From NCBI GenBank assembly GCA_031261605.1, contig JAISJI010000068.1:2771-66770 (forward strand): 64,000 nucleotides of DNA, read 5' to 3'. The position numbers were made by a program, and so were the translations under genes. Of the stretch, positions 5,582 to 63,826 are shown piece by piece. The notes beneath the pieces were generated by a model. It had not been told where the DNA came from and made no database searches. It was given only the letters and a program-made list of their open reading frames with translations. Source of the DNA: Ignavibacteria bacterium (GTDB lineage: Bacteria > Bacteroidota > Ignavibacteria > Kapaibacteriales > UBA2268). Position 1 is the first letter of the stretch; the number at the start of each line of letters is the position of its first letter.

Positions 5582-5705
5582 TATTAATATGTGAATTAGT
5601 TATTAACAATCAATTATGCTGTTTTTTCAACATAATTGTTAGATATGACTAATTTGGCACGTTTTTTTCATAGCATTTTAATAATTATATATACAAGAGG
5701 ACAAA

Positions 5706-6482
5706 ATGGCAAAAGAAGAACCAGAAGAAAATCTTGATGATGCAGCAGATAACGCTGCGGAAAGCAAGAAGAAACCTAAAAAAGAAAAGAAAACCAAAGA
5801 GCCAAACGAAGATGGCAAGCCAAGCACCATACTTATAGCTGGTGGGGCTGCTGGACTTATGATTTTAATAATCATTAGCGTTATCGTCGGCTCTGTGATA
5901 GCACAAAAGATGTTCCCTATTGAAGCATCGGCTGTCGTTGCAACTGAAGAAACTGAACACGCAGAAGGCGATGAACACTCCGCAAAGAAGCTTCCACCAA
6001 TGCCGGATGGAGAAGAAGGTGGAGAAGATGTAATATCAATGCTCGCAGATGACTCGTGGCTTTCATTTTCATCAGACAAAATACAGACCAATCCAAGCGA
6101 TAACGCTCGTGCTGTTTGTATCCTCAATGTCGCTGTTACATATAAGCCATATTACGTAGACCAATTGACTGCACGCGGTTTCCTTATACCGGCTCCTGCT
6201 GCTGGAGGAGGTGGTCATGGTGAAGCACCTGCACACGAGGAAGGTGCAAAAGTTCCGATGATTGCAGATACAAATAATTCCATATATAAATCCTTACGAC
6301 AGAGCGTAGCAAGCACCCTAGGTGGATTCCTTGGCTCCCATACCCAAGCATCATTGCAAGCAATGCAGTCGTCCAATACATTGACAGATACATTGAAATC
6401 GGTATTGAAGACACCGTTCCGCAATACTGGACTCATTGTAGGAAAAGTGGAAATTACTAACTTTATGATTGCACCAATGTAA
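5706..6482 (+). CDS. fliL: Flagellar basal-body-associated protein FliL-like. Long form with a Gly/His/Ala-rich insertion.
   Basis: N-terminal K-rich region followed by a single TM (ILIAGGAAGLMILIIISVIVGSVIA). FliL-like blocks CILNVAVTYKP...YYVD and C-terminal GKVEITNFMIAP. Lies immediately upstream of fliM. Confidence 0.6.
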   Translation: MAKEEPEENLDDAADNAAESKKKPKKEKKTKEPNEDGKPSTILIAGGAAGLMILIIISVIVGSVIAQKMFPIEASAVVATEETEHAEGDEHSAKKLPPMPDGEEGGEDVISMLADDSWLSFSSDKIQTNPSDNARAVCILNVAVTYKPYYVDQLTARGFLIPAPAAGGGGHGEAPAHEEGAKVPMIADTNNSIYKSLRQSVASTLGGFLGSHTQASLQAMQSSNTLTDTLKSVLKTPFRNTGLIVGKVEITNFMIAPM

Positions 6483-6539
6483 TTGCAGAAAGCACAAGAT
6501 ACTTTACTAATTTTTTTATCATTACTTATTTAGAATACA

Positions 6540-7559
6540 ATGGCACAGACATTACCACAAAACGTTATAGATAATTTACTTAAAGATGCAAAATCCGGTA
6601 AGGATACCTCTAAGTATGCTCGTAAAGAAGTAAGTAATTATGATTTCCGCAGACCGAATAGAATATCCAAGAACCAGATACGAACATTGCAGACGATACA
6701 CGAGAACTTCGCCGAGGTCTTTGGATATTACTTGGTATCGAAATTACAGACAACGGTAAATATTACGCCTACTTCGGTAGACCAACTTTTCTACTCAGAG
6801 TTCATACTTTCGGTTAGTAATCCGAGTTGCTTGTATGTATTTGAAATAGCGGGAACAGATGGTAATGGTATTCTGGAGATTAGTCCTCAACTGGCTCTTA
6901 CAATAGTGGAACGCTTACTTGGCGGTAATGCAGATGCTCTGCCAAAGAGTAGAACGATTACGCCGATAGAGCAGACGGTCGTTAGAGGTATGATAGAACA
7001 CGCTTTGAGCGACCTCAGGACAGCTTGGAAGTCCATCTCAGATATTAATTTTAAGTATCAACGATTGGAGCAGGAAGCGGACTTTGTGCAAATCGCACCT
7101 TCATCTGAGATTGTAATTGTGATTTCATTTGATGTTCATATTGGCTCGCATACTTTTTTGCTCAACCTATGTTTCCCAACATTTGCATTAGAGGAAGTGC
7201 TTGCGAAACTTAATCGGCAATTAGTAACTACGACAGGACATCAACAAAGTGCAAAAAAATTACGTGAAAACATACTCGCTGTTAATCAGCAAATATCTAC
7301 GACGTATCTCCCAATAGTAGCCGAACTTGGTAAGACCTCCATTACGGTTACCGAGTTGCTGGAACTCAAAGAGGGCGATATTATAAAGACAAAGAAAAGA
7401 ATAGACCAAGAAATAGAAGTAATAATAGCCGGCAAACGCAAACTCGCTGCACGTCCCGGCGTTGTCGAAGGAAAGAAGGCGGTGCGTATCATTAGACCGC
7501 TTACCGCAGACGACTTATACGAAGAAGACCTTTCTTACAAGGAAGAAAAAGAAGTTTAA
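6540..7559 (+). CDS. fliM: Flagellar motor switch protein FliM.
   Basis: 339 aa. Overall FliM layout, with a C-terminal SpoA-like region (GKTSITVTELLELKEGDIIKTKKRIDQEIEVIIAGKRKLAARPGVVEGKKAVRI). Confidence 0.8.
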   Translation: MAQTLPQNVIDNLLKDAKSGKDTSKYARKEVSNYDFRRPNRISKNQIRTLQTIHENFAEVFGYYLVSKLQTTVNITPTSVDQLFYSEFILSVSNPSCLYVFEIAGTDGNGILEISPQLALTIVERLLGGNADALPKSRTITPIEQTVVRGMIEHALSDLRTAWKSISDINFKYQRLEQEADFVQIAPSSEIVIVISFDVHIGSHTFLLNLCFPTFALEEVLAKLNRQLVTTTGHQQSAKKLRENILAVNQQISTTYLPIVAELGKTSITVTELLELKEGDIIKTKKRIDQEIEVIIAGKRKLAARPGVVEGKKAVRIIRPLTADDLYEEDLSYKEEKEV

Positions 7560-7613
7560 CACATTTTATTTATATCCATTTTAATACTAATTTATTAATT
7601 ATAGGAGCAAACA

Positions 7614-8018
7614 ATGACTCAAGAAGAAATAGATGCGCTCATCTCAGGCACGGATGATACCGCTTTAGAAGAAACTACCGATGAAGATAGTGCTGCCGAA
7701 GCCGCTGATGTCGAATTCACAGAGTTGCCATCTAATGACCAAGCCGGACAACAACTTGACCCCAAAATGGATATGCTGTATGACCTATCGCTACCGGTTT
7801 CTATAGAACTCGGTAGAACAAATATGCTTATCCGCGATGTCCTAAAACTTGGACGTGGCTCGGTTGTAGAATTTGATAAACTTGTAAGTGAGCCGGTAGA
7901 TGTGCTAATTAATGGCAAAAAAATCGCAGAAGGTGAGGTTGTTGTTATTGACAAACACTTCGGTATTCGTATCACCACACTCGTTGATGCTACTACGGCT
8001 TCGCGTGCGAGGAGGTAG
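7614..8018 (+). CDS. fliN: Flagellar motor switch protein FliN.
   Basis: 134 aa. Classic FliN C-terminal SpoA domain: LSLPVSIELGRTNMLIRDVLKLGRGSVVEFDKLVSEPVDVLINGKKIAEGEVVVIDKHFGIRITTL. Confidence 0.9.
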   Translation: MTQEEIDALISGTDDTALEETTDEDSAAEAADVEFTELPSNDQAGQQLDPKMDMLYDLSLPVSIELGRTNMLIRDVLKLGRGSVVEFDKLVSEPVDVLINGKKIAEGEVVVIDKHFGIRITTLVDATTASRARR

Positions 8019-8019
8019 T

Positions 8020-8424
8020 ATGGATGCAAACATTTTACAATCTTTCGGCGTGCTAATATTAGCCGTTGGGGTTATCGCCGGCGTTATGGTGTTGATAAAG
8101 AAAATCACCGCCCAACGCTTAGAAGCAAAGACAACGATAAATCTAAATGTTATCTCAAAAATTACATTGCAACCAAAGAACCATCTCTTTGTGGTGAAGG
8201 TAGCGGAGAAATTATTGGTGCTTGGAGTTACCGATAACAACATAAATATATTGACAGAACTCGACCCAGACGACAGCATTGTATCGCAAGTTGCAAATCC
8301 AAAAACACAAGCAACCGCTGCTGCTGCCATATTGAACAAGGTCGCTGCTGCTCCAAAGCGAGCGGACAATACTACTACAAATCTATCGTTTATGAATTTC
8401 GTAAAATCCGCTATCGGAAAATAA
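8020..8424 (+). CDS. fliO: Flagellar biosynthesis protein FliO.
   Basis: ATG at 8020 sits behind a GGAGG RBS at 8011-8015, in frame with the track ORF that starts at 7912. One TM (FGVLILAVGVIAGVMVLI), then a FliO-like block LFVVKVAEKLLVLGVTDNNINILTEL. Confidence 0.7.
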   Translation: MDANILQSFGVLILAVGVIAGVMVLIKKITAQRLEAKTTINLNVISKITLQPKNHLFVVKVAEKLLVLGVTDNNINILTELDPDDSIVSQVANPKTQATAAAAILNKVAAAPKRADNTTTNLSFMNFVKSAIGK

Positions 8425-47132: not shown

Positions 47133-48815
47133 ATGCTAATATCTAACACACGAGAGTGGGCATCGCTCAATAAACATTATAATGAGATGCAGCACGTCCA
47201 GATGAAAGAGATGTTTGTCCAAGAAGAGGGCAGATTCGAAAGGTTTTCTATTCATTTCAAGGGGCTGTTATTCGATTATTCCAAAAATATAATAACGAAG
47301 GAGACAATAGACAGATTGCTCAAACTCGCTGAGGCAGCAGACCTGAAAAGCAAAATTAATGCAATGTTTCGCGGGCAGAAAATTAATACGACCGAGAAGC
47401 GAGCAGTACTACATACCGCTCTACGCTATCCGGTGAAGGCAAGTTATTCACAAATATTTGTCAATGGCGAGGATATATATCCGGATATAAAGCGGGTTTT
47501 GGATAAGATGGAGGACTTTGTAGAGCAAGTTCATACGAAAAAGTTCCGCGGTGTGACGGGTAAGAAATTTACGGATATAGTTAATATCGGAATCGGTGGC
47601 TCAGACCTCGGTCCAGCAATGGTCACAGAGGCACTATCCTATTACAAAGTAAAAGGAATACGCTCTCACTTTGTATCTAATGTAGATGGAACAGACATCA
47701 TCAATACGTGCCTGCATCTGAACCCAGAGACAACACTCTTTATCATTGCATCGAAGACCTTCACCACGCAAGAGACAATGGCAAATGCGAATGCTGCGAA
47801 GAACTGGTTGCTTAGCAAATTGTGCGTCAATGATAGCAAGAATAAGGGCGGAACTACTCCTATAATAGATGAAAATCTACCTGTAAAAAAGCACTTTATA
47901 GCACTATCTACAAACATCCCAGCGGTTACCGAATTCGGTATTGACCCGAATAATGCGTTCGAGTTTTGGGATTGGGTTGGTGGTAGGTATTCGCTATGGT
48001 CAGCGATTGGCTTGTCTATTGCGCTTTCCATTGGTATGAGCAACTTCCGCGATTTGCTACTGGGTGCATATACAATGGATGAGCATTTCCGAAATGAGGA
48101 TTTTGACAAGAATATACCGGTCTTGATGGGCTTGCTTGGTATATGGTATCGGAATTTTTTCAATGCTGCGTCGCAAGGAGTGATACCTTACGACCAGTAT
48201 TTACGCCGCTTTCCCGCTTTTTTACAGCAGTTGGATATGGAAAGCAATGGTAAGCATACAACGAAAGATGGTTACGATGTGGATTTCCAAACCGGACCGA
48301 TAGTTTGGGGTGAGCCGGGAACAAATGCACAGCATTCGTTCTTCCAACTGATACATCAAGGCACACAGATGATACCAGTGGATTTCATTGCATTCAAGGA
48401 AAATGTTAATGATGATGGAACGCAACATAACATCCTGCTATCTAATTTCTTAGCACAGACAGAGGCATTAATGAAAGGTAAAACAGCGAAAGAAGTAGCA
48501 GCAGAATTGAAAGCAGCAAAAGAGAAGGATGCCGCCGGAATACTGCCACACAAGGTTTTCGCAGGCAACAAACCGACCAATTCTATACTGATAGATAAAC
48601 TAACACCGCATTCGCTCGGTATGCTAATTGCTATGTATGAGCATAAGGTTTTCGTGCAAGGAGCGCTCTGGAATTTAAATTCATTTGACCAATGGGGAGT
48701 GGAATTAGGCAAGCAACTCGCTAAGAAGATACTGCCGGAATTGCAATCTAACGACAAGATATCTACACACGACTCCTCTACGAATGGGCTTATCAATTAC
48801 ATAAAAAATTTGTAG
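47133..48815 (+). CDS. pgi: Glucose-6-phosphate isomerase.
   Basis: [19 protein letters not shown]-length 560 aa. Confidence 0.9.
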
Positions 48816-48981
48816 AATATTCTCTCTCCCACAAGGAAGAGAAAACAATAATCCGTCATTGACTGAACTAGGATTAAGCAGTGGATAACCAAGACCATCC
48901 GGGTGTTACTGGTCTTCCAACGCATCTACTGATGGAGGAGTTGGCGAAGTAGGTTTGTCCTCACCAATAAGTATAATTGGC

Positions 48982-49008
48982 TTAAGTTTCGTATGTAATA
49001 GCCGATAA
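48982..49008 (+). promoter_or_regulatory. Near-consensus sigma-28 (FliA) promoter: TTAAGTTT-N11-GCCGATAA.
   Basis: -35 matches 7 of 8 positions of TAAAGTTT. -10 matches 8 of 8 of GCCGATAA. The 11-nt spacer is exact. Lies ~30 nt upstream of the 49038 start. Confidence 0.6.
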
Positions 49009-49037
49009 TCTATTTATATCGTAACGTAATCATAAAA

Positions 49038-49955
49038 TTGAATAAAGAAGAGAGAACAGTGAAACGACATATACATATTGTGCTAATACCTGCATTGTTG
49101 CTGCTATTGCTGTTGCCGAGTTGCCTTCCACCAACTAATAGCAAATCCGAATCAACTAATACTGCTTCTACTACTAGTAGAAGAGGTGAATCGCGTGCTA
49201 CTTCTACTAAGAGGAGCGATACACGTTCTAAAAGCACAGATAAAAATGCAGATAAACCCGTAAAACCGAAGACCGCCAAGCAAATCCAAAAAGAAAAAGC
49301 AGATAGCGTCGCTGCCGTCGAACAAAAAAAACAAGAGGATATAGCAAAAGAAAAAGCAACTATCGCTCGCCTCGTAGATAAAGCATTGGTATCAGAGCGC
49401 GTGCAAACAAGAAAAGAAAATTCTTCTAAAGCAACTCCATTCGAACAACGAAAAAATAAACTCAAGGACATTGATAACGAAGAAGACCGATTTATTGATA
49501 CCACATATTATGTTCTAACAATGGAGGACGGCATTACCACCGTATCCAACGATATTAGCAAAGCAGGTGCTACCAGAGCCCAACTACTAGAAATGCTAAT
49601 CACTAACTACATTGAAACTGTTAAAAAATTCGAAAATAATAAACCTGTAGAGCCGGAAACATTTAGAATGTTTTCGCAGCAACTCGCATTCAATGACTCG
49701 CTACGGCAAGATGCCGATTACTACTCCGCCGAAGCCAATCTGCAACACAACAACATAGACGAAGCCATTGGCACGCTCGAAACACTATGCAACTCAAAGC
49801 CAAACAGAGCAATCGCTCCCAAAGCCCTTCTCCGATTAGGACAAGTATATTGCCTAACCGGAAATACTAAAGATGCCGAAAAATATTTTAAGCGACTCAA
49901 AAAGGAATTTCCTCGTTCGCCATTAAATAAATCGGCTGACTGCGGTCGGATGTAG
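49038..49955 (+). CDS. Hypothetical secreted or membrane protein with a charged low-complexity linker and a C-terminal TPR/YbgF-like region. Possibly sigma-28-regulated.
   Basis: Hydrophobic N-terminus HIHIVLIPALLLLLLLPSC. K/E/S-rich linker. C-terminal LGQVYCLTGNTKDAEKYFKRLKKEFP is TPR-like. A GTG at 49059 is an alternative start. Confidence 0.5.
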   Translation: MNKEERTVKRHIHIVLIPALLLLLLLPSCLPPTNSKSESTNTASTTSRRGESRATSTKRSDTRSKSTDKNADKPVKPKTAKQIQKEKADSVAAVEQKKQEDIAKEKATIARLVDKALVSERVQTRKENSSKATPFEQRKNKLKDIDNEEDRFIDTTYYVLTMEDGITTVSNDISKAGATRAQLLEMLITNYIETVKKFENNKPVEPETFRMFSQQLAFNDSLRQDADYYSAEANLQHNNIDEAIGTLETLCNSKPNRAIAPKALLRLGQVYCLTGNTKDAEKYFKRLKKEFPRSPLNKSADCGRM

Positions 49956-50055: not shown

Positions 50056-52848
50056 ATGTCCAATCAATACATTAGTATAAAAAACGCATCCCACAATAAT
50101 CTAAAAAATATCAGCTTGGATATTCCTCGTAATAAGATTACTCTTATCACAGGCGTCTCCGGCTCAGGAAAATCTACCCTTGCATTTGATACATTGTATG
50201 CAGAAGGACAACGCCGCTTCGTTGAATCGCTCTCCTCTTACGCCCGCCAATTCTTAGAACGAATGACTAAGCCCGAAGTTGACTCCATTACCGGATTACC
50301 TCCAGCTGTTGCTATTGAACAAAAAACACCACCTCGTAATTCACGCTCTACCATCGGAACAGTTACCGAAATATACGATTACATTCGCGCAATGTATTCT
50401 CGTATTGGCAAAACATATTGCGTAAAATGTGGAAACGAAATTACCGTAGATAACCCTACTTCCATCTCTAATACCGTCCTCAATTGGAAATCTGGCAATA
50501 AAGTATACATAATGTTTGAACTGCGTTCCACCGTATCCAACATCGCAAACGAATTACAAAAACTCTCGCAAGTCGGCTATACACGCGTTGTTCCGAATGG
50601 TAGCAACGATGTAATTGATATTAACGACCTCAAGGTATCGGTTAAGACAAATATAGATGACTATTTGGTGCTGGTGGATAGATGGATTGTATCAAAAGAA
50701 AAAAATGAAGTGACTCGTTTAGTGGATTCCATTGAAGTAGCATTCGCTGCGAACCCAAGCAAAATTATAATTCGTAATATCACCACCGGCGTCGAGGAGA
50801 AATTTAGTAGCGTGTATGAGTGTGCAGAATGCGGTATCAAATACGAAGAACCTGACGCTAAACTATTTGCTTTCAATAATCCGCGTGGTGCATGTCCTGT
50901 ATGCCAAGGGTTAGGTCAGGTCTTCGGGGTGGATGAAAATCTCGTCGTTCCCGATAAGACGCTCTCCTTAGATGAGCATTGCATTCATCCATATCGCTCG
51001 CCATCCACTGCCTCTGTATATCGCACTATGATAGATACTTGCAAGGAACTCGGCATTCCAACGAACGTTCCATATAGCGAGTTATCGCAATTTGATAAGG
51101 ATGTGATTTGGGAAGGCAATGGTAAATACTTTGGCATCACTAAATACTTCCAGCATCTGGAAAGCAAAAATTATAAGATACAAAATCGCCTCACCATCAG
51201 CCGCTATCGTGGTATGGCTACCTGTATGAAATGCAATGGTAGCCGTATCAAAATGGAGGCACGACAGGTATTTGTCCATAATAAAAACATACCCGATATT
51301 GTGAATATGCCGATGGACGAGTTGCACCAATTCTTCTCTACACTTAAACTGACCGACTACGAAATGCGCGCTACCGATATGATACTACACGAACTCATAT
51401 CGCGAGTGAAGATGCTCTTAGACATCGGCTTGGAATACTTAACGCTCTCCCGTAGTTGCCAAACTCTCTCCGGTGGCGAGTATCAGCGTATTAACCTATC
51501 TACTGCACTTGGCTCTACATTGGTCGGAACTCTCTATGTGCTGGATGAGCCAAGTATTGGTATGCACCCACGCGATACATATCGCTTACTGGACGTCTTG
51601 CATAAGTTGCGTGACTTGGGTAATACCATTGTCGTTGTTGAGCACGACCCCGAAATTATATCCAATGCCGATTACATAATTGATATGGGAGTTGGTGCTG
51701 GCGCCGCTGGTGGTAGAGTGCTCGCTGCTGGCGGAATGAAGGATTTATTGAAATCAAAGGAATCGCTTACAGCACAATATTTCAATAAAGAAAAATTTAT
51801 TCCCATTCCCAAAATTCGCAGAAATATAGACAAAAAAAATGTTCTAACTCTTACCGGTGCTGCTGAAAACAATCTACGTATTCCGAAAGTGAATTTCCCA
51901 CTGAAAGCATTCGTTGTTGTGACCGGTGTTTCCGGCTCAGGCAAGAGTTCCTTAGTGTATAATATATTGTATAACGCAGCATTGGAGCAATTTGGCAGAA
52001 CAGCAAAAGATACTCATATAGGTGCATTTGACGAACTCTTTGGCTGCAATTTATTAGAAGGAATAGAATTGGTTGACCAATCGCCAATAGGCAAATCCAC
52101 TCGCTCAACACCCGTTACGTATATGAAAATATTTGACTACATACGCGAACTATACAGCCATACACAAGCAGCGATACAACTCGGATTAAAGGCACAATAC
52201 TTCTCTTTCAATATGCCCGGTGGCAGATGTGATGTATGCGAAGGCGATGGCTATGTCAATATTGATATGCAGTTCTTACCGGATATAAGAGTGGAATGCG
52301 AAGCGTGCGGTGGCACTCGCTACAAACGCGAAGTCGCCGATATTCTATACCACGAAAAATCCATTATTGATGTCCTAAATATGTCGGTAGATGAAGCATA
52401 CACCCACTTCAAAGGCATTGATAAAATACAGCAGAAACTCGGTATAATGCGTGAAGTTGGCTTGGGTTATCTCAAACTTGGACAGCCAAGTTCTACTCTC
52501 TCCGGTGGTGAAGCCCAGCGTATTAAACTCTCTTCCCATATTGAATCCTTGGACAATTCCAATTATCTTTACGTCTTTGATGAGCCAACTACCGGCTTGC
52601 ATTTGGACGATATTGCGAAGTTGTTGAAAGCACTTAACAAATTGGTAGATACCGGTAATTCTGTTCTTATCATAGAGCATAACTTAAATGTAATGTCAGT
52701 CGCTGATTGGATTATTGACTTAGGACCTGAAGCAGGCAAGCGTGGCGGAACCATTGTAGGAGAAGGAACTCCCGAAGATATAGCAAAATTAAATACACAT
52801 ACCGGCATTGCTATTAAGAAGTTTTTAAAAGAAAATGTTATTGAATAG
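50056..52848 (+). CDS. uvrA: Excinuclease ABC subunit A.
   Basis: Two ABC modules (GVSGSGKST x2). Zn-finger Cys pairs (CVKCGN, CPVCQG, CMKCNG, CDVCEG). LSGGE signatures. 930 aa. Confidence 0.95.
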   Translation: MSNQYISIKNASHNNLKNISLDIPRNKITLITGVSGSGKSTLAFDTLYAEGQRRFVESLSSYARQFLERMTKPEVDSITGLPPAVAIEQKTPPRNSRSTIGTVTEIYDYIRAMYSRIGKTYCVKCGNEITVDNPTSISNTVLNWKSGNKVYIMFELRSTVSNIANELQKLSQVGYTRVVPNGSNDVIDINDLKVSVKTNIDDYLVLVDRWIVSKEKNEVTRLVDSIEVAFAANPSKIIIRNITTGVEEKFSSVYECAECGIKYEEPDAKLFAFNNPRGACPVCQGLGQVFGVDENLVVPDKTLSLDEHCIHPYRSPSTASVYRTMIDTCKELGIPTNVPYSELSQFDKDVIWEGNGKYFGITKYFQHLESKNYKIQNRLTISRYRGMATCMKCNGSRIKMEARQVFVHNKNIPDIVNMPMDELHQFFSTLKLTDYEMRATDMILHELISRVKMLLDIGLEYLTLSRSCQTLSGGEYQRINLSTALGSTLVGTLYVLDEPSIGMHPRDTYRLLDVLHKLRDLGNTIVVVEHDPEIISNADYIIDMGVGAGAAGGRVLAAGGMKDLLKSKESLTAQYFNKEKFIPIPKIRRNIDKKNVLTLTGAAENNLRIPKVNFPLKAFVVVTGVSGSGKSSLVYNILYNAALEQFGRTAKDTHIGAFDELFGCNLLEGIELVDQSPIGKSTRSTPVTYMKIFDYIRELYSHTQAAIQLGLKAQYFSFNMPGGRCDVCEGDGYVNIDMQFLPDIRVECEACGGTRYKREVADILYHEKSIIDVLNMSVDEAYTHFKGIDKIQQKLGIMREVGLGYLKLGQPSSTLSGGEAQRIKLSSHIESLDNSNYLYVFDEPTTGLHLDDIAKLLKALNKLVDTGNSVLIIEHNLNVMSVADWIIDLGPEAGKRGGTIVGEGTPEDIAKLNTHTGIAIKKFLKENVIE

Positions 52849-52893: not shown

Positions 52894-54780
52894 ATGAGAA
52901 AATGGAATAGCGAGGATTCCGCCGAACTATACAACATCTGCGGCTGGGGTGTCGGCTACTTTGGAATTAATGCCAAAGGTAACGTCATCGTTACGCCACA
53001 CAAAGATGGACACGGAGTTGAACTATTAGAAATCATTGACGAATTACAAATCAAAGATGTCTCTATGCCCGTCCTACTACGCTTCCCAGACATCATAGAC
53101 AATCGTATCGAGACCATCTCCCGATGCTTTGATGCCGCTTCAAAGGAATACGAATATAACGGAAAAAACTTCATCATCTATCCAATTAAAGTAAATCAAA
53201 TGCGACAGGTCGTAGAGGAAATAGTAGACCACGGCAAAAAATTTAACATCGGATTGGAAGCCGGCTCTAAGCCAGAACTGCACGCCGTCCTTGGTGTTAG
53301 CACCGAAAATTCCCTAATCGTATGCAACGGATACAAAGACAACGACTACATTGAACTCGCTCTCTTAGCACAAAAAATGGGCAAACGAATTTACATCGTA
53401 GTAGAAAAAACCAATGAACTAAAAAAGATAATAAAAATTTCGAAAGACCTAAAAATAAAGCCAAACATCGGCATCCGTATTAAACTCGCAAGTTCTGGTA
53501 GCGGAAAATGGGAAGATAGCGGTGGCGATAAAAGTAAATTCGGACTCACCTCCAGCGAACTCCTTGAAGCAATAGACCTCTTAGATAAGCATAAGTTAAA
53601 GGAAAATCTAAAGTTAATCCACTTCCACATCGGAAGCCAAGTTACAAATATTCGCAAAATAAAAACAGCATTCAGAGAGGCATCCAACTTTTATGTCCAA
53701 CTCCACAAACTCGGTTGCAACATAGAATATGTAGATATTGGAGGCGGTCTCGGCGTAGATTACGAGGGAACTCGCTCTGCAAACAGCTCCAGTAGCACAA
53801 ATTATTCCATACAAGAATACGTAAATGATGCCATAGCAAATTTTGTGGATGCCGCTAATCACAACGACTTGCCACATCCAAATATCGTTACCGAAAGTGG
53901 TCGCTCGCTCGCTGCACATCATTCTGTCCTCGTTTTTGATGTTTTAGAAGCAAATTCTTTATCTAAAATGGATGATAGTTTTGAACTCAAGGATGAACAT
54001 CACGAACTCGTTAAAGAACTTTACGAAATTTGGGATAACATATCTATAAATCGGATACTTGAGGCGTGGCACGATGCCCAACAAATTAGAGAAGAATCGT
54101 TAGAGCGTTTTAGTTTGGGCGTTTTGGATTTGGAAACACGTGCTTTGGTGGAAAAAATATTTTGGTCTATCGCCGATGAAGTTAGCAAACTTACGCTAAA
54201 TATTAAGCACCCAGCCGAAGAATTTAAGCAAATAGAAAAACTGCTAACCGATAAATATTTCTGCAACTTCTCGCTTTTTCAGTCGCTACCGGATTCGTGG
54301 GCTATCGACCAGTTATTCCCAATTATGCCAATTCATAGATTGAACGAAAAACCCGATAAGTTCGCTACTTTGCAAGACATAACTTGCGATAGCGATGGAA
54401 AGGTAAATCAATTTATTTCTACATCTAACTCTCCTAACTCACTACCAATTCACAGCTTAGGTGCTGACCCATATTATATCGGTGTATTTTTAGTTGGGGC
54501 ATATCAGGAAATTTTGGGCGATTTGCATAATTTATTTGGCGACACAAACGCAGTCCATATAAATGTAAATGAAAATGGCTACAATATTGAGCAAGTCATT
54601 GATGGTGAAACAGTTGCGGAGGTTTTGGAGTATGTTCAATACAAGCCAAAAAAATTGGTAAGAGATGTTGAAACTTACGTTGCAAATTCCATAAAAGCCG
54701 GAAAAATAACAGCCCAAGAGGGAAAAGAATTTCTTTCTATTTATCGTTCCGGATTATTCGGCTACACTTATTTAGAATAA
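52894..54780 (+). CDS. speA: Biosynthetic arginine decarboxylase.
   Basis: N-terminal WNSEDSAELYNICGWGVGYF, PLP-dependent fold-III decarboxylase blocks, 628 aa. Confidence 0.85.
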   Translation: MRKWNSEDSAELYNICGWGVGYFGINAKGNVIVTPHKDGHGVELLEIIDELQIKDVSMPVLLRFPDIIDNRIETISRCFDAASKEYEYNGKNFIIYPIKVNQMRQVVEEIVDHGKKFNIGLEAGSKPELHAVLGVSTENSLIVCNGYKDNDYIELALLAQKMGKRIYIVVEKTNELKKIIKISKDLKIKPNIGIRIKLASSGSGKWEDSGGDKSKFGLTSSELLEAIDLLDKHKLKENLKLIHFHIGSQVTNIRKIKTAFREASNFYVQLHKLGCNIEYVDIGGGLGVDYEGTRSANSSSSTNYSIQEYVNDAIANFVDAANHNDLPHPNIVTESGRSLAAHHSVLVFDVLEANSLSKMDDSFELKDEHHELVKELYEIWDNISINRILEAWHDAQQIREESLERFSLGVLDLETRALVEKIFWSIADEVSKLTLNIKHPAEEFKQIEKLLTDKYFCNFSLFQSLPDSWAIDQLFPIMPIHRLNEKPDKFATLQDITCDSDGKVNQFISTSNSPNSLPIHSLGADPYYIGVFLVGAYQEILGDLHNLFGDTNAVHINVNENGYNIEQVIDGETVAEVLEYVQYKPKKLVRDVETYVANSIKAGKITAQEGKEFLSIYRSGLFGYTYLE

Positions 54781-54799
54781 TTTTTTTGGCTAAAATTAA

Positions 54800-55900
54800 T
54801 TAAATAAATTTACGAACTCCACGACGATTTCCATCGGAATTAAAAAATAATAAATCATCAACGCTAAACCAGCAATCTATTGAATTTCCACGCCTTATAG
54901 ATAAATTTGGAGCAGTTTTAATTCTTTTTTGAGTATCGCCAGTCGTAAAATAAATAATTGATTCATTACCCAAAAATTCAATATTATCAACAATAATGCG
55001 AATATTTACATTGCGGTCTGAATTATTATTTCCCAGTTGAATATTTTCCGGTCTAATAGCAATAGTCAGCGGCGTAACTCCTTGATTATTACGGAGTAAC
55101 TGCGGAATTAAAAACTCAGAATTATTTTCACGAAAATTATTTCCGTCATTAATTCCGACAAAAAAATTAATATTCGGCGTGCCAATAAAATCCGCAACAA
55201 AAATATTTTCCGGATTATGATAAATTTCGTAAGGCGTATCAAATTGCTGCAAAATTCCATTTTTTAACACCGCAATTTTCGTTCCCATAGTCATCGCTTC
55301 GGTCTGGTCGTGCGTAACATAAATTGACGTAACCCCATATTTTCTATGGAGATTAATGATTTCTTGACGCATCTGAATACGCAATTTTGCATCCAAATTC
55401 GACAGCGGCTCATCAAAAAGAAAAAAATCCGGCTGCCGAATAATAGCCCGACCAAGTGCAACACGTTGACGCTGTCCACCAGAGAGTTCTCGCGGCTTCC
55501 TTTTGATAAGTTCAAGCAATCCAATGGTTTGTGCAACCTCCAAAACTCTATTTCGTATCTCCTTATTATTCAATTTGTTATTGCCTTTATGAACTTTTAG
55601 CGGAAACGCAATATTATCAAAAACCGACAAATGCGGATACAAAGCATACTCCTGAAAAACCATTCCTATATTTCTTTTATTCGCATCTAAGCCATTGGAA
55701 ATTTTACCATTTAGCAATAAACTCCCACTCGTAATTTCTTCCAAACCAGCAATCATTCGCAAAACAGTAGTTTTCCCACAGCCAGAAGGTCCGACCAGCA
55801 CAACAAAATCGCCATCCTCAGCGATAAAAGAAATATTTTTTACCGCCTGAGTATTATTTGAAAAAGTTTTTGTGATATTTTGTAACTCTATATATGCCAT
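54800..55900 (-). CDS. ABC transporter ATP-binding protein (MalK/PotA-like, with a C-terminal TOBE-like domain).
   Basis: Walker A GPSGCGKTT, signature LSGGQRQRVALGRA, Walker B FLFDEPLSNLD. Confidence 0.85.
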   Translation of the reverse strand: MAYIELQNITKTFSNNTQAVKNISFIAEDGDFVVLVGPSGCGKTTVLRMIAGLEEITSGSLLLNGKISNGLDANKRNIGMVFQEYALYPHLSVFDNIAFPLKVHKGNNKLNNKEIRNRVLEVAQTIGLLELIKRKPRELSGGQRQRVALGRAIIRQPDFFLFDEPLSNLDAKLRIQMRQEIINLHRKYGVTSIYVTHDQTEAMTMGTKIAVLKNGILQQFDTPYEIYHNPENIFVADFIGTPNINFFVGINDGNNFRENNSEFLIPQLLRNNQGVTPLTIAIRPENIQLGNNNSDRNVNIRIIVDNIEFLGNESIIYFTTGDTQKRIKTAPNLSIRRGNSIDCWFSVDDLLFFNSDGNRRGVRKFI

Positions 55901-55950
55901 TAGGTTGCAATTATTTAAATTATTATTTTATAGCGATTTATTGAAAAAAA

Positions 55951-57114
55951 TTAAATATTATTTATTATTTTATCGAATTGATTAATAATATTGATATGCG
56001 AAAATCTATTTAAACTTAAGTCAATGATATTTCTATCTTTAGGAGTAGCATTAAGGATTAATTCAGACAATTCATCCGAATTTCCAACATTAAATAAATA
56101 CCCATTTTTCCCATTTTCTAAAATCTCTGCCGGACCCGATGGACAATTTGAGCAAATGACTGAATTATTTACAGTTAGCGCCTCCGCAACGACCATTCCA
56201 AATCCCTCATAATTAGAACTTAAAATAAATTTATCGCAATTTTTCATCCAATTGTATGGATTAATTTTTCCGCCAAGTAAATAAATATTTTTATTGAATT
56301 TGCACTTATTTTTCAAGGAGTTAATTTGATTAATTTCCGTATCACCACCCGTTCCAATTATATACAAATTTCCATCATAGCCATTATTTTTCGCCAAATC
56401 AAATGCAGTAAATAAAGTTTGAAAATCTTTTTGCACTGTATCCAAACGCGAAACCATTAATAAATATTTTGAATTTAAATAATTCATTTCATCTGTTGTA
56501 AATTCCTCATTTGCAAGCGTTTTTATTTGCTCAATATCAATTGGATTGTATAGAACTAACGTTTTATTTTTCAATGTGTTATCCAAATGACAAATATTAT
56601 TTCTTATATCTTCACTAACACAAATTATTTTATCATATTTAGAAATTTTATTTAAATATTTTTTTATTTTATTTTTATTTTTAAGCCAACTTTCTATATT
56701 AATATGCATCCAAGTCATTGTTTTTGAAGTAGTTACATATTTCAATTTATTCAGATGAAAATTATGAAAATCAATAAAAATATCAGGTTTATAAGCATTG
56801 CAAATTTCCTTAAATCTATTATTTTTATAATTCTTATTTTTAATTAATTGAATATTGAAATTAATTTTGTCAAAAACGCTATTATTTCTATTTTTAGAAA
56901 CACAATTGAAGTGTGTAACTCTATTATTATCAACAAGATGTATTATTGGGACATCAATATTATTGCCTATCACATTATTTATATCCAAACCCATATCAAA
57001 AACAATTTTTGTCTCAAAATTGCTTTGATTTGCTAAATAATTTATATAAATGGATTGGATTTTTTCAATGCCACCGAAGCCAGTATTATGGCTTTTAAAT
57101 AATATTTTTTTCAC
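55951..57114 (-). CDS. Glycosyltransferase family 4.
   Basis: C-terminal EGFGMVVAEALTVNNSVICSN.PSGPAEIL (GT4 E-x7-E region). Confidence 0.75.
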   Translation of the reverse strand: MKKILFKSHNTGFGGIEKIQSIYINYLANQSNFETKIVFDMGLDINNVIGNNIDVPIIHLVDNNRVTHFNCVSKNRNNSVFDKINFNIQLIKNKNYKNNRFKEICNAYKPDIFIDFHNFHLNKLKYVTTSKTMTWMHINIESWLKNKNKIKKYLNKISKYDKIICVSEDIRNNICHLDNTLKNKTLVLYNPIDIEQIKTLANEEFTTDEMNYLNSKYLLMVSRLDTVQKDFQTLFTAFDLAKNNGYDGNLYIIGTGGDTEINQINSLKNKCKFNKNIYLLGGKINPYNWMKNCDKFILSSNYEGFGMVVAEALTVNNSVICSNCPSGPAEILENGKNGYLFNVGNSDELSELILNATPKDRNIIDLSLNRFSHINIINQFDKIINNI

Positions 57115-57811
57115 TAATATTTCTTGTAAATAATTTTCTAATATTTAAAATAAACCTTGATATTTCACGACTTATTTTAAAAACAATATTAATACTGCTT
57201 TTTCTATTTTTAATTGTTGAATTTAATGAGTTTTCATTTTCTTTAATTAAATATGGAAAATAAAAAATTGTAGGAATTTTATGTATCCAAAAACTATCCA
57301 AATAATCATCCACAGGATATAGCCAAGCCCTTGATTTTTCAATGAATTGCCTTGCTGCAAACGGAGTTAAATAATACCCTTGCGCACCAGAAACTCCATT
57401 TCGTGTAATATAAAAGTTGCCGTTTATTTTTTTACTTTTTTTGTCGAATAAACACATTAATTTAGTATAATTATATGGGCTTTTTTTTATGACATCTAAT
57501 CCATTTTCAAAATCTGGAAGTAAGGCAACATCGTCCTCTAAAATCACAATATCTTCTTTTAATTCAAGGCACTTCTGCCATAAAGAATAATGCGAAGCAA
57601 AGCAAGCAATTTCGCCATCAGTCAACGACTTTCCCCGAATTAATTTGCTAAAAAAAGGATTAATTTTATTAAAAAAAATACCAATTTTCTGCGAATTAAT
57701 TGCATTAAAAAAAATAAATTCATTTTTATCTGAATTAATGCTATCCATCTGAAAAATCATAGAGTTACGTCTATTTATTTCCGTTTCTAAATTTATAATA
57801 AATATTTTCAT
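57095..57811 (-). CDS. Glycosyltransferase family 25 (LPS/LOS biosynthesis, Lic2B/LgtB-like).
   Basis: N-terminal MKIFIINLETEINRRNSM matches GT25. 20-nt overlap with the GT4 gene. Confidence 0.65.
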   Translation of the reverse strand: MKIFIINLETEINRRNSMIFQMDSINSDKNEFIFFNAINSQKIGIFFNKINPFFSKLIRGKSLTDGEIACFASHYSLWQKCLELKEDIVILEDDVALLPDFENGLDVIKKSPYNYTKLMCLFDKKSKKINGNFYITRNGVSGAQGYYLTPFAARQFIEKSRAWLYPVDDYLDSFWIHKIPTIFYFPYLIKENENSLNSTIKNRKSSINIVFKISREISRFILNIRKLFTRNISEKNII

Positions 57812-57812
57812 T

Positions 57813-58493
57813 TTATTCGTTAAGTAAATCAGGACGAATATTTTTAGTTTTAATTAAAGATTGTTCATTTCGCCATTTTGCAATTTCTTTATGATTGCCC
57901 GATAATAATATTTCAGGAACAGCATAACCCTTGTAATTTGATGGTCTTGTGTATTGTGGTGACTCCAATAATCCATCCATCAACGAGTCATCTAAAGCGG
58001 ATTCAGAATCACCAATCGCCTCTGGTATTAACCTAACTACTGAATCTACAATGACTAATGCTGGAATTTCACCGCCAGTGAGCACATAATCTCCAATTGA
58101 TAACTCTAATGTTATCAATGTGTTACGAATTCGCTGGTCAATTCCTTTATAATGCCCACAAAGAATAATAATATTATTTAAAAGCGAAATTTTATTGCAA
58201 TCAGATTGCGTAAGTACCGGTGCATCGGGGGTTACGAAAATAATTTCGTCATAATTTCTCTGGGATTTTAATTTTTCAATGCAATCAAAAATCGGCTGAC
58301 ATTTCAACAGCATTCCAGCGGCACCGCCAAAAGGTGCATCGTCAATATGGCGAAATTTATCCAAAGCATAATCGTGCAAATTATGGAGAAAAATCTCAAT
58401 AAGTCCTTTATTTTTAGCGTTATATATAATACTCGAATTCAACATTGATTCCATTGATTCTGGAACGGCTGAAATAATATCAATTCTCATCAA
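57813..58493 (-). CDS. trmD: tRNA (guanine37-N1)-methyltransferase.
   Basis: MRIDIISAVPE, PFGGAAGMLL, TGGEIPALVIVDSVVRLIPEA. Confidence 0.9.
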   Translation of the reverse strand: MMRIDIISAVPESMESMLNSSIIYNAKNKGLIEIFLHNLHDYALDKFRHIDDAPFGGAAGMLLKCQPIFDCIEKLKSQRNYDEIIFVTPDAPVLTQSDCNKISLLNNIIILCGHYKGIDQRIRNTLITLELSIGDYVLTGGEIPALVIVDSVVRLIPEAIGDSESALDDSLMDGLLESPQYTRPSNYKGYAVPEILLSGNHKEIAKWRNEQSLIKTKNIRPDLLNE

Positions 58494-58502
58494 AATAAAT
58501 AA

Positions 58503-59501
58503 TTATAATTGCACAAGCCCTATTTTTTTATAGACCTTACATAAAGTTTTAAATGCAGTTTTATTAGCTTTTTCCATACCATCTTTAATAATATTATTTA
58601 AATAATTTTTATCCAATTTTATTTTTTCATATTCATTTCTAATCGGTTTAATAAATTCAATAATTGCATCTGCAGTGGTATTTTTTAAATCTCCATAAGT
58701 TTTTCCAATAAAATTATTCTCTATATTTATCAATGAGTTACCTGTAGAAACACTGAGCAAAGTAAGCAAATTTGTAATTCCTGGTTTATTATCTGCACAT
58801 TTAATTTCAGTGCCACTATCAGTAACACTACGTTTAATTTTATTGCGAATTTGGTCATCGGAATCGGTCAGAAAAATAATATTTTTTTCATTTTCATCCG
58901 ATTTTGACATTTTTTTTGTCGGCTCTTGCAGCGACATAATTCTTGCACCTATTTTCGGAATAAATGGCTCCGGAATTTTAAATGTATCCGAATAATGATA
59001 ATTAAATCGCTGTGCGACATTTCTGGTAAGTTCCAAATGCTGTTTTTGGTCATCTCCGATTGGCACTAAGTCCGCCTGATAAAGTAGTATATCCGCTGCC
59101 ATTAAGACAGGATACGCAAATAGTCCAACATTAATATTGTCAGAATGTGCTTGCGATTTATCTTTAAATTGTGTCATTTTGGCACACTCACTATAGCCAG
59201 TAAAACAACTCAAAATCCACTGCAATTGTGAATGTGCAGGAACGTGAGATTGGACGAAAAGTGTTGATTTTTCGGGACTTATACCGCACGCCACATACAT
59301 AGCAATCGTGTCCATTGTTTTATCGCGTAAAACAGACGGCTCCTGACGAATTGTCATAGTATGGAGGTCTGCAATCATATAAAAACATTGGTAATCATCC
59401 TGCAACTGCTGCCAATTTGTCAGTGCCCCTGCAAGATGCCCGATTGTAAGATTGCCAGATGGCTGAATTCCGCTAAGAATTATTTTTTGATTATTTTCCA
59501 T
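58503..59501 (-). CDS. trpS: Tryptophan--tRNA ligase.
   Basis: SGIQPSGNLTIGH (HIGH-like), KMSKS. 332 aa. Confidence 0.9.
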   Translation of the reverse strand: MENNQKIILSGIQPSGNLTIGHLAGALTNWQQLQDDYQCFYMIADLHTMTIRQEPSVLRDKTMDTIAMYVACGISPEKSTLFVQSHVPAHSQLQWILSCFTGYSECAKMTQFKDKSQAHSDNINVGLFAYPVLMAADILLYQADLVPIGDDQKQHLELTRNVAQRFNYHYSDTFKIPEPFIPKIGARIMSLQEPTKKMSKSDENEKNIIFLTDSDDQIRNKIKRSVTDSGTEIKCADNKPGITNLLTLLSVSTGNSLINIENNFIGKTYGDLKNTTADAIIEFIKPIRNEYEKIKLDKNYLNNIIKDGMEKANKTAFKTLCKVYKKIGLVQL

Positions 59502-59513
59502 ATTTTATTTTTA

Positions 59514-60971: not shown

Positions 60972-61018
60972 TCCCCTTAAAATAAAACTACTTAAAGTTT
61001 TTTGGCACGGTTTTTGCT

Positions 61019-61027
61019 GGGGGGGGG
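61019..61027. repeat. G9 homopolymeric tract (C9 on the coding strand) in the aspS/downstream-gene intergenic region.
   Basis: Read directly: ctggggggggggatt gives nine consecutive G in a ~36% GC background. Lies 48 nt upstream of the TTG start of 59514..60971. Confidence 0.7.
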
Positions 61028-61073
61028 ATTTATTGATTTCAAAGGACTTATGGGTTTTTTGTTGACAATTTTA

Positions 61074-62897: not shown

Positions 62898-62930
62898 AAT
62901 TTATTTGTTTGTTTTATATTCTAGTTTATT

Positions 62931-63800: not shown

Positions 63801-63826
63801 TTTTTATTTATAGTGTTAGCGAAAAA

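What the first reader, a model, noticed from the sequence alone, without database searches (positions are those of the whole stretch)
48982..49059. Near-consensus sigma-28 (FliA) promoter in front of an unannotated TPR-like secreted protein
TTAAGTTT-N11-GCCGATAA matches the enterobacterial sigma-28 consensus TAAAGTTT-N11-GCCGATAA at 15 of 16 positions with exact spacing. It lies ~30 nt upstream of a 305-aa ORF with a hydrophobic N-terminus, a charged linker and a TPR/YbgF-like C-terminus. That would make this uncharacterised gene a late flagellar or chemotaxis regulon member, possibly a motility-associated periplasmic protein, even though it sits 40 kb from the fli operon.
Basis: partly seen in the sequence, partly recalled or inferred. 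Interest (0 to 1): 0.55.

Follow-up and report, generated by a model that had tools for sequence, protein, structure and literature searches.

The report
Flagellar sigma-28 promoter driving a lipoprotein
An uncultured flagellated Ignavibacteria bacterium has a conserved flagellar-type (sigma-28) promoter in front of an uncharacterised periplasmic lipoprotein gene, so the protein is probably made together with the late flagellar parts and is a candidate lineage-specific motility accessory.

Summary
TTAAGTTT-N11-GCCGATAA lies at 48982-49008 (+), 15 of 16 to the sigma-28 consensus, with 0.01 such sites expected per window.

It sits 50 nt upstream of the probable GTG start (49059) of a 298-aa lipoprotein. 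That protein has a long tether and a C-terminal three-repeat TPR domain.

Three tests support a real FliA-dependent promoter:
- **Conservation.** TAAAG-N15-CCGAT with identical spacing precedes the orthologue in all 9 other independent loci with upstream DNA. The proteins are only 31-48% identical and have different neighbours. In 228 kb the strict pattern occurs 12 times against about 1 expected, and never elsewhere.
- **Sigma factor.** A contig assigned to the same genome carries flhF-flhG-(unknown ORF)-fliA, and the FliA scores above the FliA/WhiG family cut-off.
- **Flagellar targets.** That contig has the same motif before fliS-fliD-flaG. A related genome has it before a stand-alone fliS.

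Distant family members instead carry a sigma-54-type promoter.

What the protein does is inferred only. My best guess is a periplasmic accessory of the late flagellum or motor, analogous to MotX. There are no expression data.

This is a new member of a known kind and is moderately interesting.

The parts
48982..48989 (+). -35 element of the sigma-28-type promoter, TTAAGTTT (consensus TAAAGTTT; one mismatch at base 2)
   Evidence: TAAAG is conserved at the same place in 9 other orthologous loci.
49001..49008 (+). -10 element GCCGATAA, a perfect match, 11 nt after the -35 octamer
   Evidence: CCGAT is invariant in all 10 family promoters and the spacer is not conserved.
49015..49018 (+). Predicted transcription start (A49016 or A49018, 7-10 nt after the -10), giving a 5' leader of about 41-44 nt. 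Inferred, not measured.
   Evidence: Inferred from the known geometry of sigma-28 promoters. TATA[TA] occurs at this distance in 8 of 10 family promoters.
49050..49054 (+). Shine-Dalgarno-like GAGAG, 4 nt before the GTG start
   Evidence: Orthologues have GGAGAA 4-7 nt before a TTG, ATG or GTG start.
49059..49124 (+). Lipoprotein signal peptide MKRHIHIVLIPALLLLLLLPS-C, with the Cys22 codon at 49122-49124
   Evidence: Homologue N-termini align here. Cys22 is invariant in 23 of 23.
49125..49463 (+). Variable tether (residues 23-135): a disordered S/T/K/R-rich stretch followed by a long K/E-rich helix. Length and sequence are not conserved.
   Evidence: AlphaFold pLDDT is below 50 for residues 30-57 and there is a helix at 73-116. 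The alignment is gapped here.
49464..49955 (+). Conserved core (residues 136-298 plus the stop codon): LKDI..DRFIDTTYY motif, a beta hairpin, and three TPR-like helix pairs. Cys265 and Cys295 are invariant. The Cys199/Cys226 pair is present in 22 of 23 members and both are absent only in the window protein.
   Evidence: Pfam TPR_6, 38.3 bits. YbgF TIGR02795, 48.6 bits, below cut-off. pLDDT is above 90 for residues 180-298. Foldseek matches YbgF 2xev and YfgM 8zht. Invariant residues.
48950..48957 (+). TAGGTTTG, matching the Bacteroidota-type housekeeping -7 motif TAnnTTTG. It could be an extra upstream promoter. A TAnnTTTG within 35 nt upstream of the sigma-28 motif occurs in only 3 of 10 loci.
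5655..8424 (+). Context: sigma-54-like TGGCACGTTTTTTTC (5655-5669), then a fliL-like ORF (5706-6482), fliM (6540-7559), fliN (7614-8018) and fliO (7912-8424). This is an earlier-class flagellar operon of the same genome.

Best explanation
**Shown from sequence comparison.**
- Window 48982-49008 is a sigma-28 (FliA)-type promoter for a stand-alone gene, 49059-49955.
- The genome encodes a FliA/WhiG-family sigma factor next to flhF and flhG.
- The same two-block motif precedes fliS-fliD-flaG.
- The motif travels with this gene family wherever the gene sits in related genomes.

**Inferred mechanism.**
1. Once FliA is freed from its anti-sigma factor, after the hook-basal body is built, FliA-RNA polymerase starts transcription near 49016.
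2. The mRNA is translated from GTG 49059.
3. The product is exported by Sec and lipidated on Cys22.
4. It hangs in the periplasm on a tether of about 110 residues. At the end of the tether is a compact, disulfide-stabilised domain (beta hairpin plus three TPR repeats) that binds a partner.

**Function (my best guess, not shown).** The partner is part of the late flagellar or motor apparatus or of the surrounding wall. That would make this a lineage-specific periplasmic flagellar accessory, functionally comparable to MotX.

In more distant relatives the same family is driven by a sigma-54-type promoter. The family is therefore under alternative-sigma control throughout, and the sigma factor has been swapped during evolution.
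For: **Motif in the window.**
- It matches 15 of 16 consensus positions with exact spacing, against 0.01 expected per window.

**Conservation with the gene family.**
- The strict pattern T[AT]AAG-N15-CCGAT occurs 12 times in 228 kb (both strands) against 1.08 expected, with a maximum of 6 in 200 simulations.
- Ten of those hits are directly upstream of the family gene in independent loci. All are on the coding strand, 25-70 nt before the start.
- The proteins are 31-48% identical and no neighbouring gene is shared with the window.
- Only the two promoter blocks carry information; the spacer does not.

**Sigma factor and flagellar targets.**
- fliA is on L020 at 14188-14967. It scores 197.5 bits against TIGR02479 (cut-off 189.6) and matches E. 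coli FliA 6pmi at 1e-31.
- L020 is assigned to the window's genome.
- The motif precedes fliS-fliD-flaG at L020 6461, with an N12 spacer. It also occurs at L020 9843.
- It precedes a stand-alone fliS (L018 5640) in the genome that also holds orthologue L002.

**The protein.**
- The lipobox Cys and core motifs are invariant. Cys199 and Cys226 are lost together.
- The TPR fold is predicted with confidence.

**Distant members.**
- L024 and L027 have TTTGGCTTTAAAATTGCTTGA and L028 has TTGGCTTTATATTTGC.
Against: - There is no transcript, start-site or mutant evidence. Everything is comparative.
- The window site is the only one with a changed -35 (TTAAG). With a matrix trained on the other 11 sites it ranks 35th of 128,000 positions over the full 32 nt. 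Over the two core blocks alone it ranks 2nd.
- Assignment of L020 to the same genome is strong but indirect.
- The gene is never next to flagellar genes. The close subfamily is tiny: 10 proteins in 5.8 billion by word-seeded search, and 9 cluster representatives below 1e-30. FliM of this lineage has more than 1000 relatives. The protein is therefore not a universal flagellar part.
- The fold matches are generic TPR proteins with no flagellar hit.
- Sigma-28 regulons in other bacteria include non-flagellar genes (my own knowledge).
- Of six independent distant loci, only two have a weaker sigma-28-like site, three have the sigma-54 type, and one is unclear.
Confidence: 0.75

Rival explanations
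1. The promoter is real and FliA-dependent, but the lipoprotein has no flagellar role. It would be a general envelope factor (CpoB/YbgF-, BamD- or YfgM-like TPR adaptor) or a surface or adhesion factor that is merely co-regulated with the motile state, as many sigma-28 regulon members are in other bacteria.
For: - The best sequence and fold matches are the CpoB/YbgF TPR domain, BamD and YfgM.
- The gene is never linked to flagellar genes.
- The close family is much narrower than FliM.
Against: - All matches are below family cut-offs and generic for three-repeat TPR domains.
- There is no tol-pal or bam context.
- The family is under sigma-28 or sigma-54 control in all but one of the loci examined. 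Those are the two sigma types whose motifs also precede flagellar operons in this genome.
Confidence: 0.3
2. The gene is transcribed mainly from another promoter. One candidate is a Bacteroidota-type housekeeping promoter (TAGGTTTG at 48950). Another is a sigma-54 promoter overlapping the -35 (aTTGGCTTAAGTTTCGT). A third is read-through from pgi. The sigma-28 match would then contribute little.
For: - TAnnTTTG lies 32 nt upstream of the motif, and similar motifs lie at -21 or -22 in L008 and L010.
- The bases around the -35 resemble the -24 half of the sigma-54 promoter found in distant members.
- No convincing terminator follows pgi.
Against: - A TAnnTTTG within 35 nt upstream of the motif is present in only 3 of 10 loci, at varying distance.
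- The -12 GC of a sigma-54 promoter is missing in the window, and none of the other sigma-28-type loci has TGGC there.
- The upstream gene differs in every locus while the sigma-28 motif stays.
Confidence: 0.1
3. The match is a chance occurrence in AT-rich intergenic DNA and has no function.
For: - A whole genome about 50 times the size of the window would give roughly 0.5 such sites by chance (extrapolated).
- The -35 carries a mismatch at an otherwise invariant base.
Against: - The motif recurs at the same position and spacing in 9 other independent orthologous loci with unrelated flanks.
- It occurs nowhere else in 228 kb except before fliS and inside the flagellar cluster.
Confidence: 0.03

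Closest known systems
Sigma-28 (FliA / SigD / WhiG) class 3 flagellar promoters, consensus TAAAGTTT-N11-GCCGATAA (enterobacteria; the same two blocks in Bacillus, Chlamydia and others; from my own knowledge)
   Same: Same two blocks, same spacing and same orientation relative to the gene. A cognate FliA/WhiG-family sigma factor is encoded beside flhF and flhG. The motif also precedes fliS-fliD-flaG.
   Different: The lineage (uncultured Ignavibacteriota/Kapaibacteria) has, as far as my searches show, no described sigma-28 promoters. The target is a lineage-specific lipoprotein rather than a known flagellar or chemotaxis gene. No start site or FliA dependence has been measured.
MotX of Vibrio, the periplasmic SEL1-repeat component of the T ring that stabilises the stator (PMC9093738). 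motX is a single-gene unit unlinked to other flagellar genes (operon table in PMC3948606). Its late, sigma-28-dependent expression and its need for a disulfide are from my own knowledge.
   Same: A small exported alpha-helical-repeat protein with conserved cysteines. It is encoded by a stand-alone gene away from the flagellar clusters and carries a late flagellar promoter.
   Different: There is no sequence or profile similarity, and no Sel1 hit in Pfam. The protein here is a lipoprotein with a long tether. No MotY, stator or T-ring evidence exists here. This is a functional analogy only.
CpoB/YbgF, the Tol-Pal associated TPR protein (TIGR02795; PDB 2xev, 6g5s)
   Same: The C-terminal three-repeat TPR domain is the best sequence and fold match.
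   Different: The score is 48.6 bits against a cut-off of 90.1. The protein is a lipoprotein rather than a soluble periplasmic protein. There is no tol-pal neighbourhood. It has a family-specific RFxDTT / DSL / GQxxC core with conserved cysteines.
TPR-based periplasmic flagellar scaffolds (PflA and PflB of Campylobacter; the TPR collar protein of Borrelia), as described or cited in PMC11870540
   Same: Periplasmic TPR proteins recruited to flagellar motors. They are poorly conserved in sequence and so are missed by homology searches.
   Different: Those proteins are large, with 15 or more repeats. In that survey candidates were accepted only if encoded near flagellar genes. The protein here has three repeats and is never near flagellar genes.

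Membership tests
Sigma-28 (FliA)-dependent promoter | -35 TAAA(G) and -10 (G)CCGATA(A/T) separated so that the two octamers are 11 (or 12) nt apart | tested here: met
   TTAAGTTT-N11-GCCGATAA, 15 of 16.
Sigma-28 (FliA)-dependent promoter | A FliA/WhiG-family sigma factor is encoded in the same genome | tested here: met
   L020 14188-14967 scores 197.5 bits against TIGR02479 (cut-off 189.6) and lies downstream of flhF and flhG. The same-genome assignment is indirect: same run, neighbouring accessions, GC content, tetranucleotide r = 0.91.
Sigma-28 (FliA)-dependent promoter | The same motif precedes known late flagellar genes of the organism | tested here: met
   fliS-fliD-flaG at L020 6461 with an N12 spacer. 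fliS at L018 5640 in a related genome. A flagellin gene in L021 has TAAAGTTT-N11-GACGAAAA. The flagellin gene of the window's own genome was not recovered.
Sigma-28 (FliA)-dependent promoter | Transcription starts 6-10 nt after the -10 and depends on FliA | not testable with these tools
   No transcript data or genetics are available.
Bacterial lipoprotein (signal peptidase II substrate) | Positively charged N-terminus, hydrophobic core, and a lipobox ending in an invariant Cys | tested here: met
   MKRH-IHIVLIPALLLLLLL-PSC. The Cys is invariant in 23 of 23. No dedicated predictor was run.
CpoB/YbgF (TIGR02795 / PRK10803) | Score above the family cut-off | tested here: not met
   48.6 bits against 90.1, and 26 bits against 383.
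CpoB/YbgF (TIGR02795 / PRK10803) | Gene located in a tol-pal cluster | tested here: not met
   The window gene lies between pgi and a uvrA-like gene. Neighbours in other loci are unrelated.
BamD (TIGR03302) | Score above the family cut-off | tested here: not met
   31.4 bits against 81.4.
MotX (SEL1-repeat T-ring protein) | Sel1-type repeats or sequence homology to MotX | tested here: not met
   No Sel1 family appears among the Pfam hits. No MotX sequence was available for direct comparison.
MotX (SEL1-repeat T-ring protein) | Association with the basal body and requirement for stator assembly | not testable with these tools
   This needs cryo-tomography or genetics.

The most novel reading that the evidence does not exclude
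The family would be a previously unrecognised periplasmic component of the flagellar motor of Ignavibacteriota/Kapaibacteria. It would be a lipid-anchored, tethered, disulfide-bonded TPR module that docks to the stator, the P/L-ring region or the wall late in assembly, as MotX does. Its promoter would have been switched between the two flagellar sigma factors (sigma-54 in some lineages, sigma-28 in others). The window promoter (aTTGGCTTAAGTTT...) may still carry a remnant of the sigma-54 -24 box.
Probability: 0.3. Interest if true: 0.65.

Novelty: new member of a known kind. Interest (0 to 1): 0.45.

Why it matters
**Regulation.** Flagellar gene regulation has not been described for the Ignavibacteriota/Kapaibacteria branch of the Bacteroidota-Chlorobiota group. 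These data show that the classical sigma-28 promoter grammar is used there. They also hint at a sigma-54 to sigma-28 cascade.

**Method.** Promoter conservation picks out a regulon member that gene neighbourhood would never have found. A recent survey (PMC11870540) accepted TPR motor proteins only when they were encoded next to flagellar genes, so it would miss proteins like this one.

**If the protein is a motor accessory.** It would add a new, lineage-specific part to the growing list of periplasmic flagellar scaffolds. It would also give an example of a flagellar-associated gene moving between sigma classes.

**If the protein is not a motor accessory.** It is still a clean marker gene for the motile state in these uncultured bacteria.

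Tried and rejected
- **CpoB/YbgF, BamD, PorW membership.** All scores are far below cut-off and the gene context is wrong.
- **Structure searches.** Two AlphaFold models (pLDDT 73 and 78) returned only generic three-repeat TPR matches against the PDB and no flagellar protein. A PDB profile search gave only CpoB at E = 0.001.
- **Synteny.** None of the related loci shares a gene with the window. Within one sub-clade the gene follows the SRP RNA gene.
- **Terminators and RNA structure.** No significant structure or terminator lies between pgi and the promoter or after the gene, with z-scores of -0.5 and +0.7. Insulation from pgi and read-through into the uvrA-like gene are therefore unresolved.
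- **Rfam scan of the window.** It found only one tRNA.
- **A 95-aa ORF as FlgM.** The ORF lies downstream of the second sigma-28 motif in L020 (10142-10429). It is conserved in L021 (E = 1e-9). Its C-terminal 'I..G.Y....A.K.L' pattern is suggestive only.
- **Position weight matrix from the other 11 sites.** Over the full 32 nt it over-fits flank and spacer, and the window site ranks 35th. With core positions only it ranks 2nd.
- **Literature.** Searches for fliA or sigma-28 in Ignavibacteria/Kapaibacteria found nothing relevant.
- **Extending L020.** The flagellin, motAB and che genes of this genome could not be examined.
Full report
**1. The observation**

Window 48980-49008 reads gc-TTAAGTTT-cgtatgtaata-GCCGATAA. 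It matches the sigma-28 consensus TAAAGTTT-N11-GCCGATAA at 15 of 16 positions with exact spacing. It is the only site in the 64-kb window at up to 3 mismatches. At up to 1 mismatch the chance expectation is 0.01 per window. GCCGATAA alone occurs five times against 2.7 expected, so the -10 by itself means little.

The site lies in the 243-nt gap between pgi (47133-48815) and the ORF 49038/49059-49955. A uvrA-like gene (50056-52848) and speA follow.

**2. The gene and its product**

The longest ORF starts at TTG 49038 (305 aa), and NCBI and JGI call it that way. I prefer the GTG at 49059 (298 aa), as the Logan assembly called it, for two reasons:
- The N-termini of all homologues align with it (MKRHIHIV...).
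- It follows a GAGAG element, where orthologues have GGAGAA 4-7 nt before their start.

The N-terminus is a lipoprotein signal (K/R/H, hydrophobic core, LPS-C). Cys22 is invariant in 23 of 23 family members.

After the signal come, in order:
- A disordered S/T/K/R-rich stretch and a long K/E-rich helix (residues 23 to about 135). Both vary in length and sequence.
- A conserved core: LKDI..DRFIDTTYY, a beta hairpin, and three TPR-like helix pairs.

AlphaFold pLDDT is above 90 for residues 180-298.

Invariant residues include D147, T148, D213, L215, G261, Q262, C265 and C295. C199 and C226 are present together in 22 of 23 members and are both missing only in the window protein. I read this as two disulfides, one of them lost as a pair. 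That fits a periplasmic location, but it is an inference.

Domain matches are all weak:
- Pfam finds a single TPR_6 repeat.
- NCBIfam gives YbgF/CpoB at 48.6 bits (cut-off 90.1), plus BamD and PorW weakly.
- Foldseek and a PDB profile search give only generic three-repeat TPR proteins: YbgF 2xev, YfgM 8zht, BamD, IpgC and CpoB 6g5s.

**3. The organism**

The window encodes type IX secretion cargo proteins together with fliM, fliN and fliO. FliM is identical to NCBI MDR0927908.1, 'MAG: Ignavibacteria bacterium'. Its nearest relatives are labelled Kapaibacteria or Ignavibacteria. I. album, a cultured member of the phylum, has a large flagellar gene cluster, but nothing on flagellar promoters is reported (PMC3362086).

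**4. Is the motif functional? Conservation test**

The close family is very small: 10 proteins by word-seeded search of 5.8 billion. Scans of genome and metagenome collections returned 16 loci.

In every locus that retains upstream DNA there is a TAAAG-N15-CCGAT[AT][ATC] site on the coding strand, 25-70 nt before the start. There are nine such loci after removing duplicates, plus the window:

| Locus | Site |
|---|---|
| L002 | TAAAGAAA-N11-GCCGATTA |
| L003 | TAAAGAAA-N11-ACCGATAC |
| L004 | TAAAGCTT-N11-TCCGATAA |
| L005 | TAAAGATT-N11-ACCGATAT |
| L008 | TAAAGAAT-N11-ACCGATAA |
| L010 | TAAAGTTT-N11-GCCGATTA |
| L011 | TAAAGAAT-N11-GCCGATTA |
| L013 | TAAAGATA-N11-GCCGATTA |
| L015 | TAAAGATA-N11-TCCGATAC |

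Further points:
- The proteins are only 31-48% identical to the window protein.
- None of these loci shares a neighbouring gene with the window. Their neighbours are unrelated housekeeping genes.
- Only the two blocks are conserved, and the spacer is not.
No hit lies anywhere other than the places described here.

This is the signature of a sigma-factor promoter that travels with the gene.

**5. Is there a FliA, and does the motif mark flagellar genes?**

I searched with FliS from a related genome. That led to contig L020, from the same sequencing run (SRR14710919) as the Logan copy of the window.

L020 carries these genes in order:
- fliS, fliD, flaG.
- A toxin-antitoxin insertion.
- Two small conserved ORFs.
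- flhF, flhG.
- A 502-aa ORF.
- A 259-aa sigma factor.
- An HDOD protein.

The sigma factor scores 197.5 bits against TIGR02479 FliA_WhiG (cut-off 189.6). Its best PDB matches are WhiG/FliA-family chains, including E. coli FliA 6pmi at 1e-31.

Four lines link L020 to the window's genome:
- The same sequencing run.
- NCBI accessions MDR0926897 (FliS), MDR0927908 (FliM) and MDR0927945 (the lipoprotein), all from 'Ignavibacteria bacterium'.
- GC content of 0.40 in both.
- A tetranucleotide correlation of 0.91. Values are 0.73-0.93 among 17-kb pieces of the window and 0.50-0.79 for all other loci.

On L020 the fliS-fliD-flaG operon is preceded by TAAAGTTT-N12-TCCGATAT. A second perfect-spacing site, TAAAGAAA-N11-GCCGATAA, lies about 270 nt upstream of a conserved 95-aa ORF. 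That ORF may be an FlgM-like anti-sigma factor, but this is not demonstrable.

In genome WRLB01, which also holds orthologue L002, a stand-alone fliS is preceded by TAAAGTTT-N11-TCCGATAA. In a more distant Ignavibacteria genome the flagellin gene has TAAAGTTT-N11-GACGAAAA.

fliA is present, the motif is far above background, and the other hits precede flagellar genes.

**6. The wider family and a promoter swap**

A profile search of 1.84 billion cluster representatives gives 9 hits below 1e-30, 278 below 1e-10 and 1648 below 1e-3. The weakest hits are probably generic TPR proteins.

The sampled members at 1e-21 to 1e-32 are 190-260-aa lipoproteins. They share the RFxDTT, DSL and GQxxC motifs and the terminal Cys, as well as the cysteines. 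At least one comes from Kapabacteria.

Six independent loci of these distant members were read:

| Locus | Upstream site | Type |
|---|---|---|
| L025 | TAAAGTAT-N11-TCCGAAAC | sigma-28-like, weaker |
| L023 | TCAAGAAT-N12-GACGATAA | sigma-28-like, weaker |
| L024 | TTTGGCTTTAAAATTGCTTGA | sigma-54 type |
| L027 | TTTGGCTTTAAAATTGCTTGA | sigma-54 type |
| L028 | TTGGCTTTATATTTGC | sigma-54 type |
| L026 | TGGTATATTTTTTGTA | unclear |

The three sigma-54-type sites have GG and GC 10 nt apart and lie 45-60 nt before the ATG.

The loose pattern TGGC-N7-TTGC is common: 17 occurrences in 234 kb. From that frequency I estimate that three of five upstream regions carrying it on the right strand, with a shared extended sequence, would arise by chance with a probability of about 5e-7.

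In the window's own genome two operons are preceded by the shared 14-mer TTGGCACGTTTTTT: the fliL-like/fliM/fliN/fliO operon (window 5655) and flhF (L020). This is sigma-54-like but lacks the -12 GC.

I infer a two-tier flagellar hierarchy, sigma-54 then sigma-28. The lipoprotein family would sit in one tier or the other depending on lineage.

The window promoter reads aTTGGCTTAAGTTTCGT, so its deviant -35 coincides with a TGGC. This may be a relic of the sigma-54 form, or it may be coincidence.

**7. Mechanism and confidence**

| Claim | Status | Probability |
|---|---|---|
| Conserved sigma-28-type promoter, cognate sigma factor present, same motif on late flagellar genes | Shown by comparison | 0.85 for FliA-dependent transcription |
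| Start near 49016; Sec export and lipidation; periplasmic tethered TPR module with disulfides | Inferred | Not scored separately |
| Protein acts at the late flagellum or motor, analogous to MotX | Guessed | 0.3-0.45 |
| Protein is a general envelope or surface factor co-regulated with motility | Rival | about 0.3 |
| Site is a chance match | Rival | about 0.03 |

MotX of Vibrio is a periplasmic helical-repeat protein that stabilises the stator (PMC9093738). Its gene is a single-gene unit away from other flagellar genes (PMC3948606). TPR scaffolds are known in other motors (PMC11870540).

**8. Verdict**

This is a new member of a known kind, a sigma-28 regulon member, in a lineage where this regulation had not been described. 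The protein family is uncharacterised and its function is open. Interest is moderate.

Noticed in passing
window 61003-61017 (+): A perfect sigma-54 consensus, TGGCACGGTTTTTGC, is followed by a run of nine G. It sits in the 100-nt gap between two minus-strand genes (unknown 59514-60971 and aspS 61074-62897). There is no plus-strand ORF or Rfam family downstream. It could drive a small RNA or an antisense transcript.
   Followed up: partly
window 5655-5669 (+) and L020 about 10607-10623: The 14-mer TTGGCACGTTTTTT precedes both the fliL-like/fliM/fliN/fliO operon and flhF of the same genome. It is sigma-54-like at -24 but lacks the canonical GC at -12. This suggests sigma-54 control of earlier flagellar classes.
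   Followed up: partly
L024 2956, L027 2439, L028 1343: Distant members of the lipoprotein family carry a conserved sigma-54-type promoter (TTGGCTTTAWAWTTGC) instead of the sigma-28 motif. The sigma factor has apparently been swapped within one gene family.
   Followed up: partly
L003 7697-7795, L004 7814-7911, L008 106-204, L015 918-1016: In one sub-clade the lipoprotein gene lies directly downstream of the SRP RNA gene (Rfam RF00169, 58-63 bits). The sigma-28 motif starts 4-15 nt after the end of the RNA gene.
   Followed up: yes
L020 9204-9756: A VapB-like antitoxin and a ParE-like toxin gene pair is inserted inside the late flagellar cluster, between flaG and two conserved small ORFs.
   Followed up: no
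L020 9843-9869 and 10142-10429: A perfect-spacing sigma-28 motif lies inside a 128-aa ORF, about 270 nt upstream of a conserved 95-aa ORF. The tail of that ORF (IKSGFYDKADVMKQVASKML) looks FlgM-like. No database profile recognises it.
   Followed up: partly
window 49059; L003, L005, L008, L010, L011, L013 start codons: Six of ten sigma-28-type family genes start with TTG or GTG, each after a GGAGAA-like ribosome-binding site. This is an unusually high share of non-ATG starts and may limit translation.
   Followed up: no
window 23474-24322, 27488-29140, 35117-36433: There are three N6/N4 DNA methylase genes in 13 kb. Two are fused to nuclease domains (Mrr_cat and HNH). The stretch around 24-26 kb has lower GC (0.34), so these may be mobile restriction-modification islands.
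   Followed up: no
window 54000-64000: GC content drops from about 0.41 to 0.26-0.32 across a block of glycosyltransferase, trmD, tRNA synthetase and unknown genes.
   Followed up: no
window 30760-33054: A single protein combines a Cache/PDC sensor, a SpoIIE-type phosphatase and an anti-sigma-type HATPase_c_2 kinase domain. It is a partner-switching regulator of unknown target.
   Followed up: no
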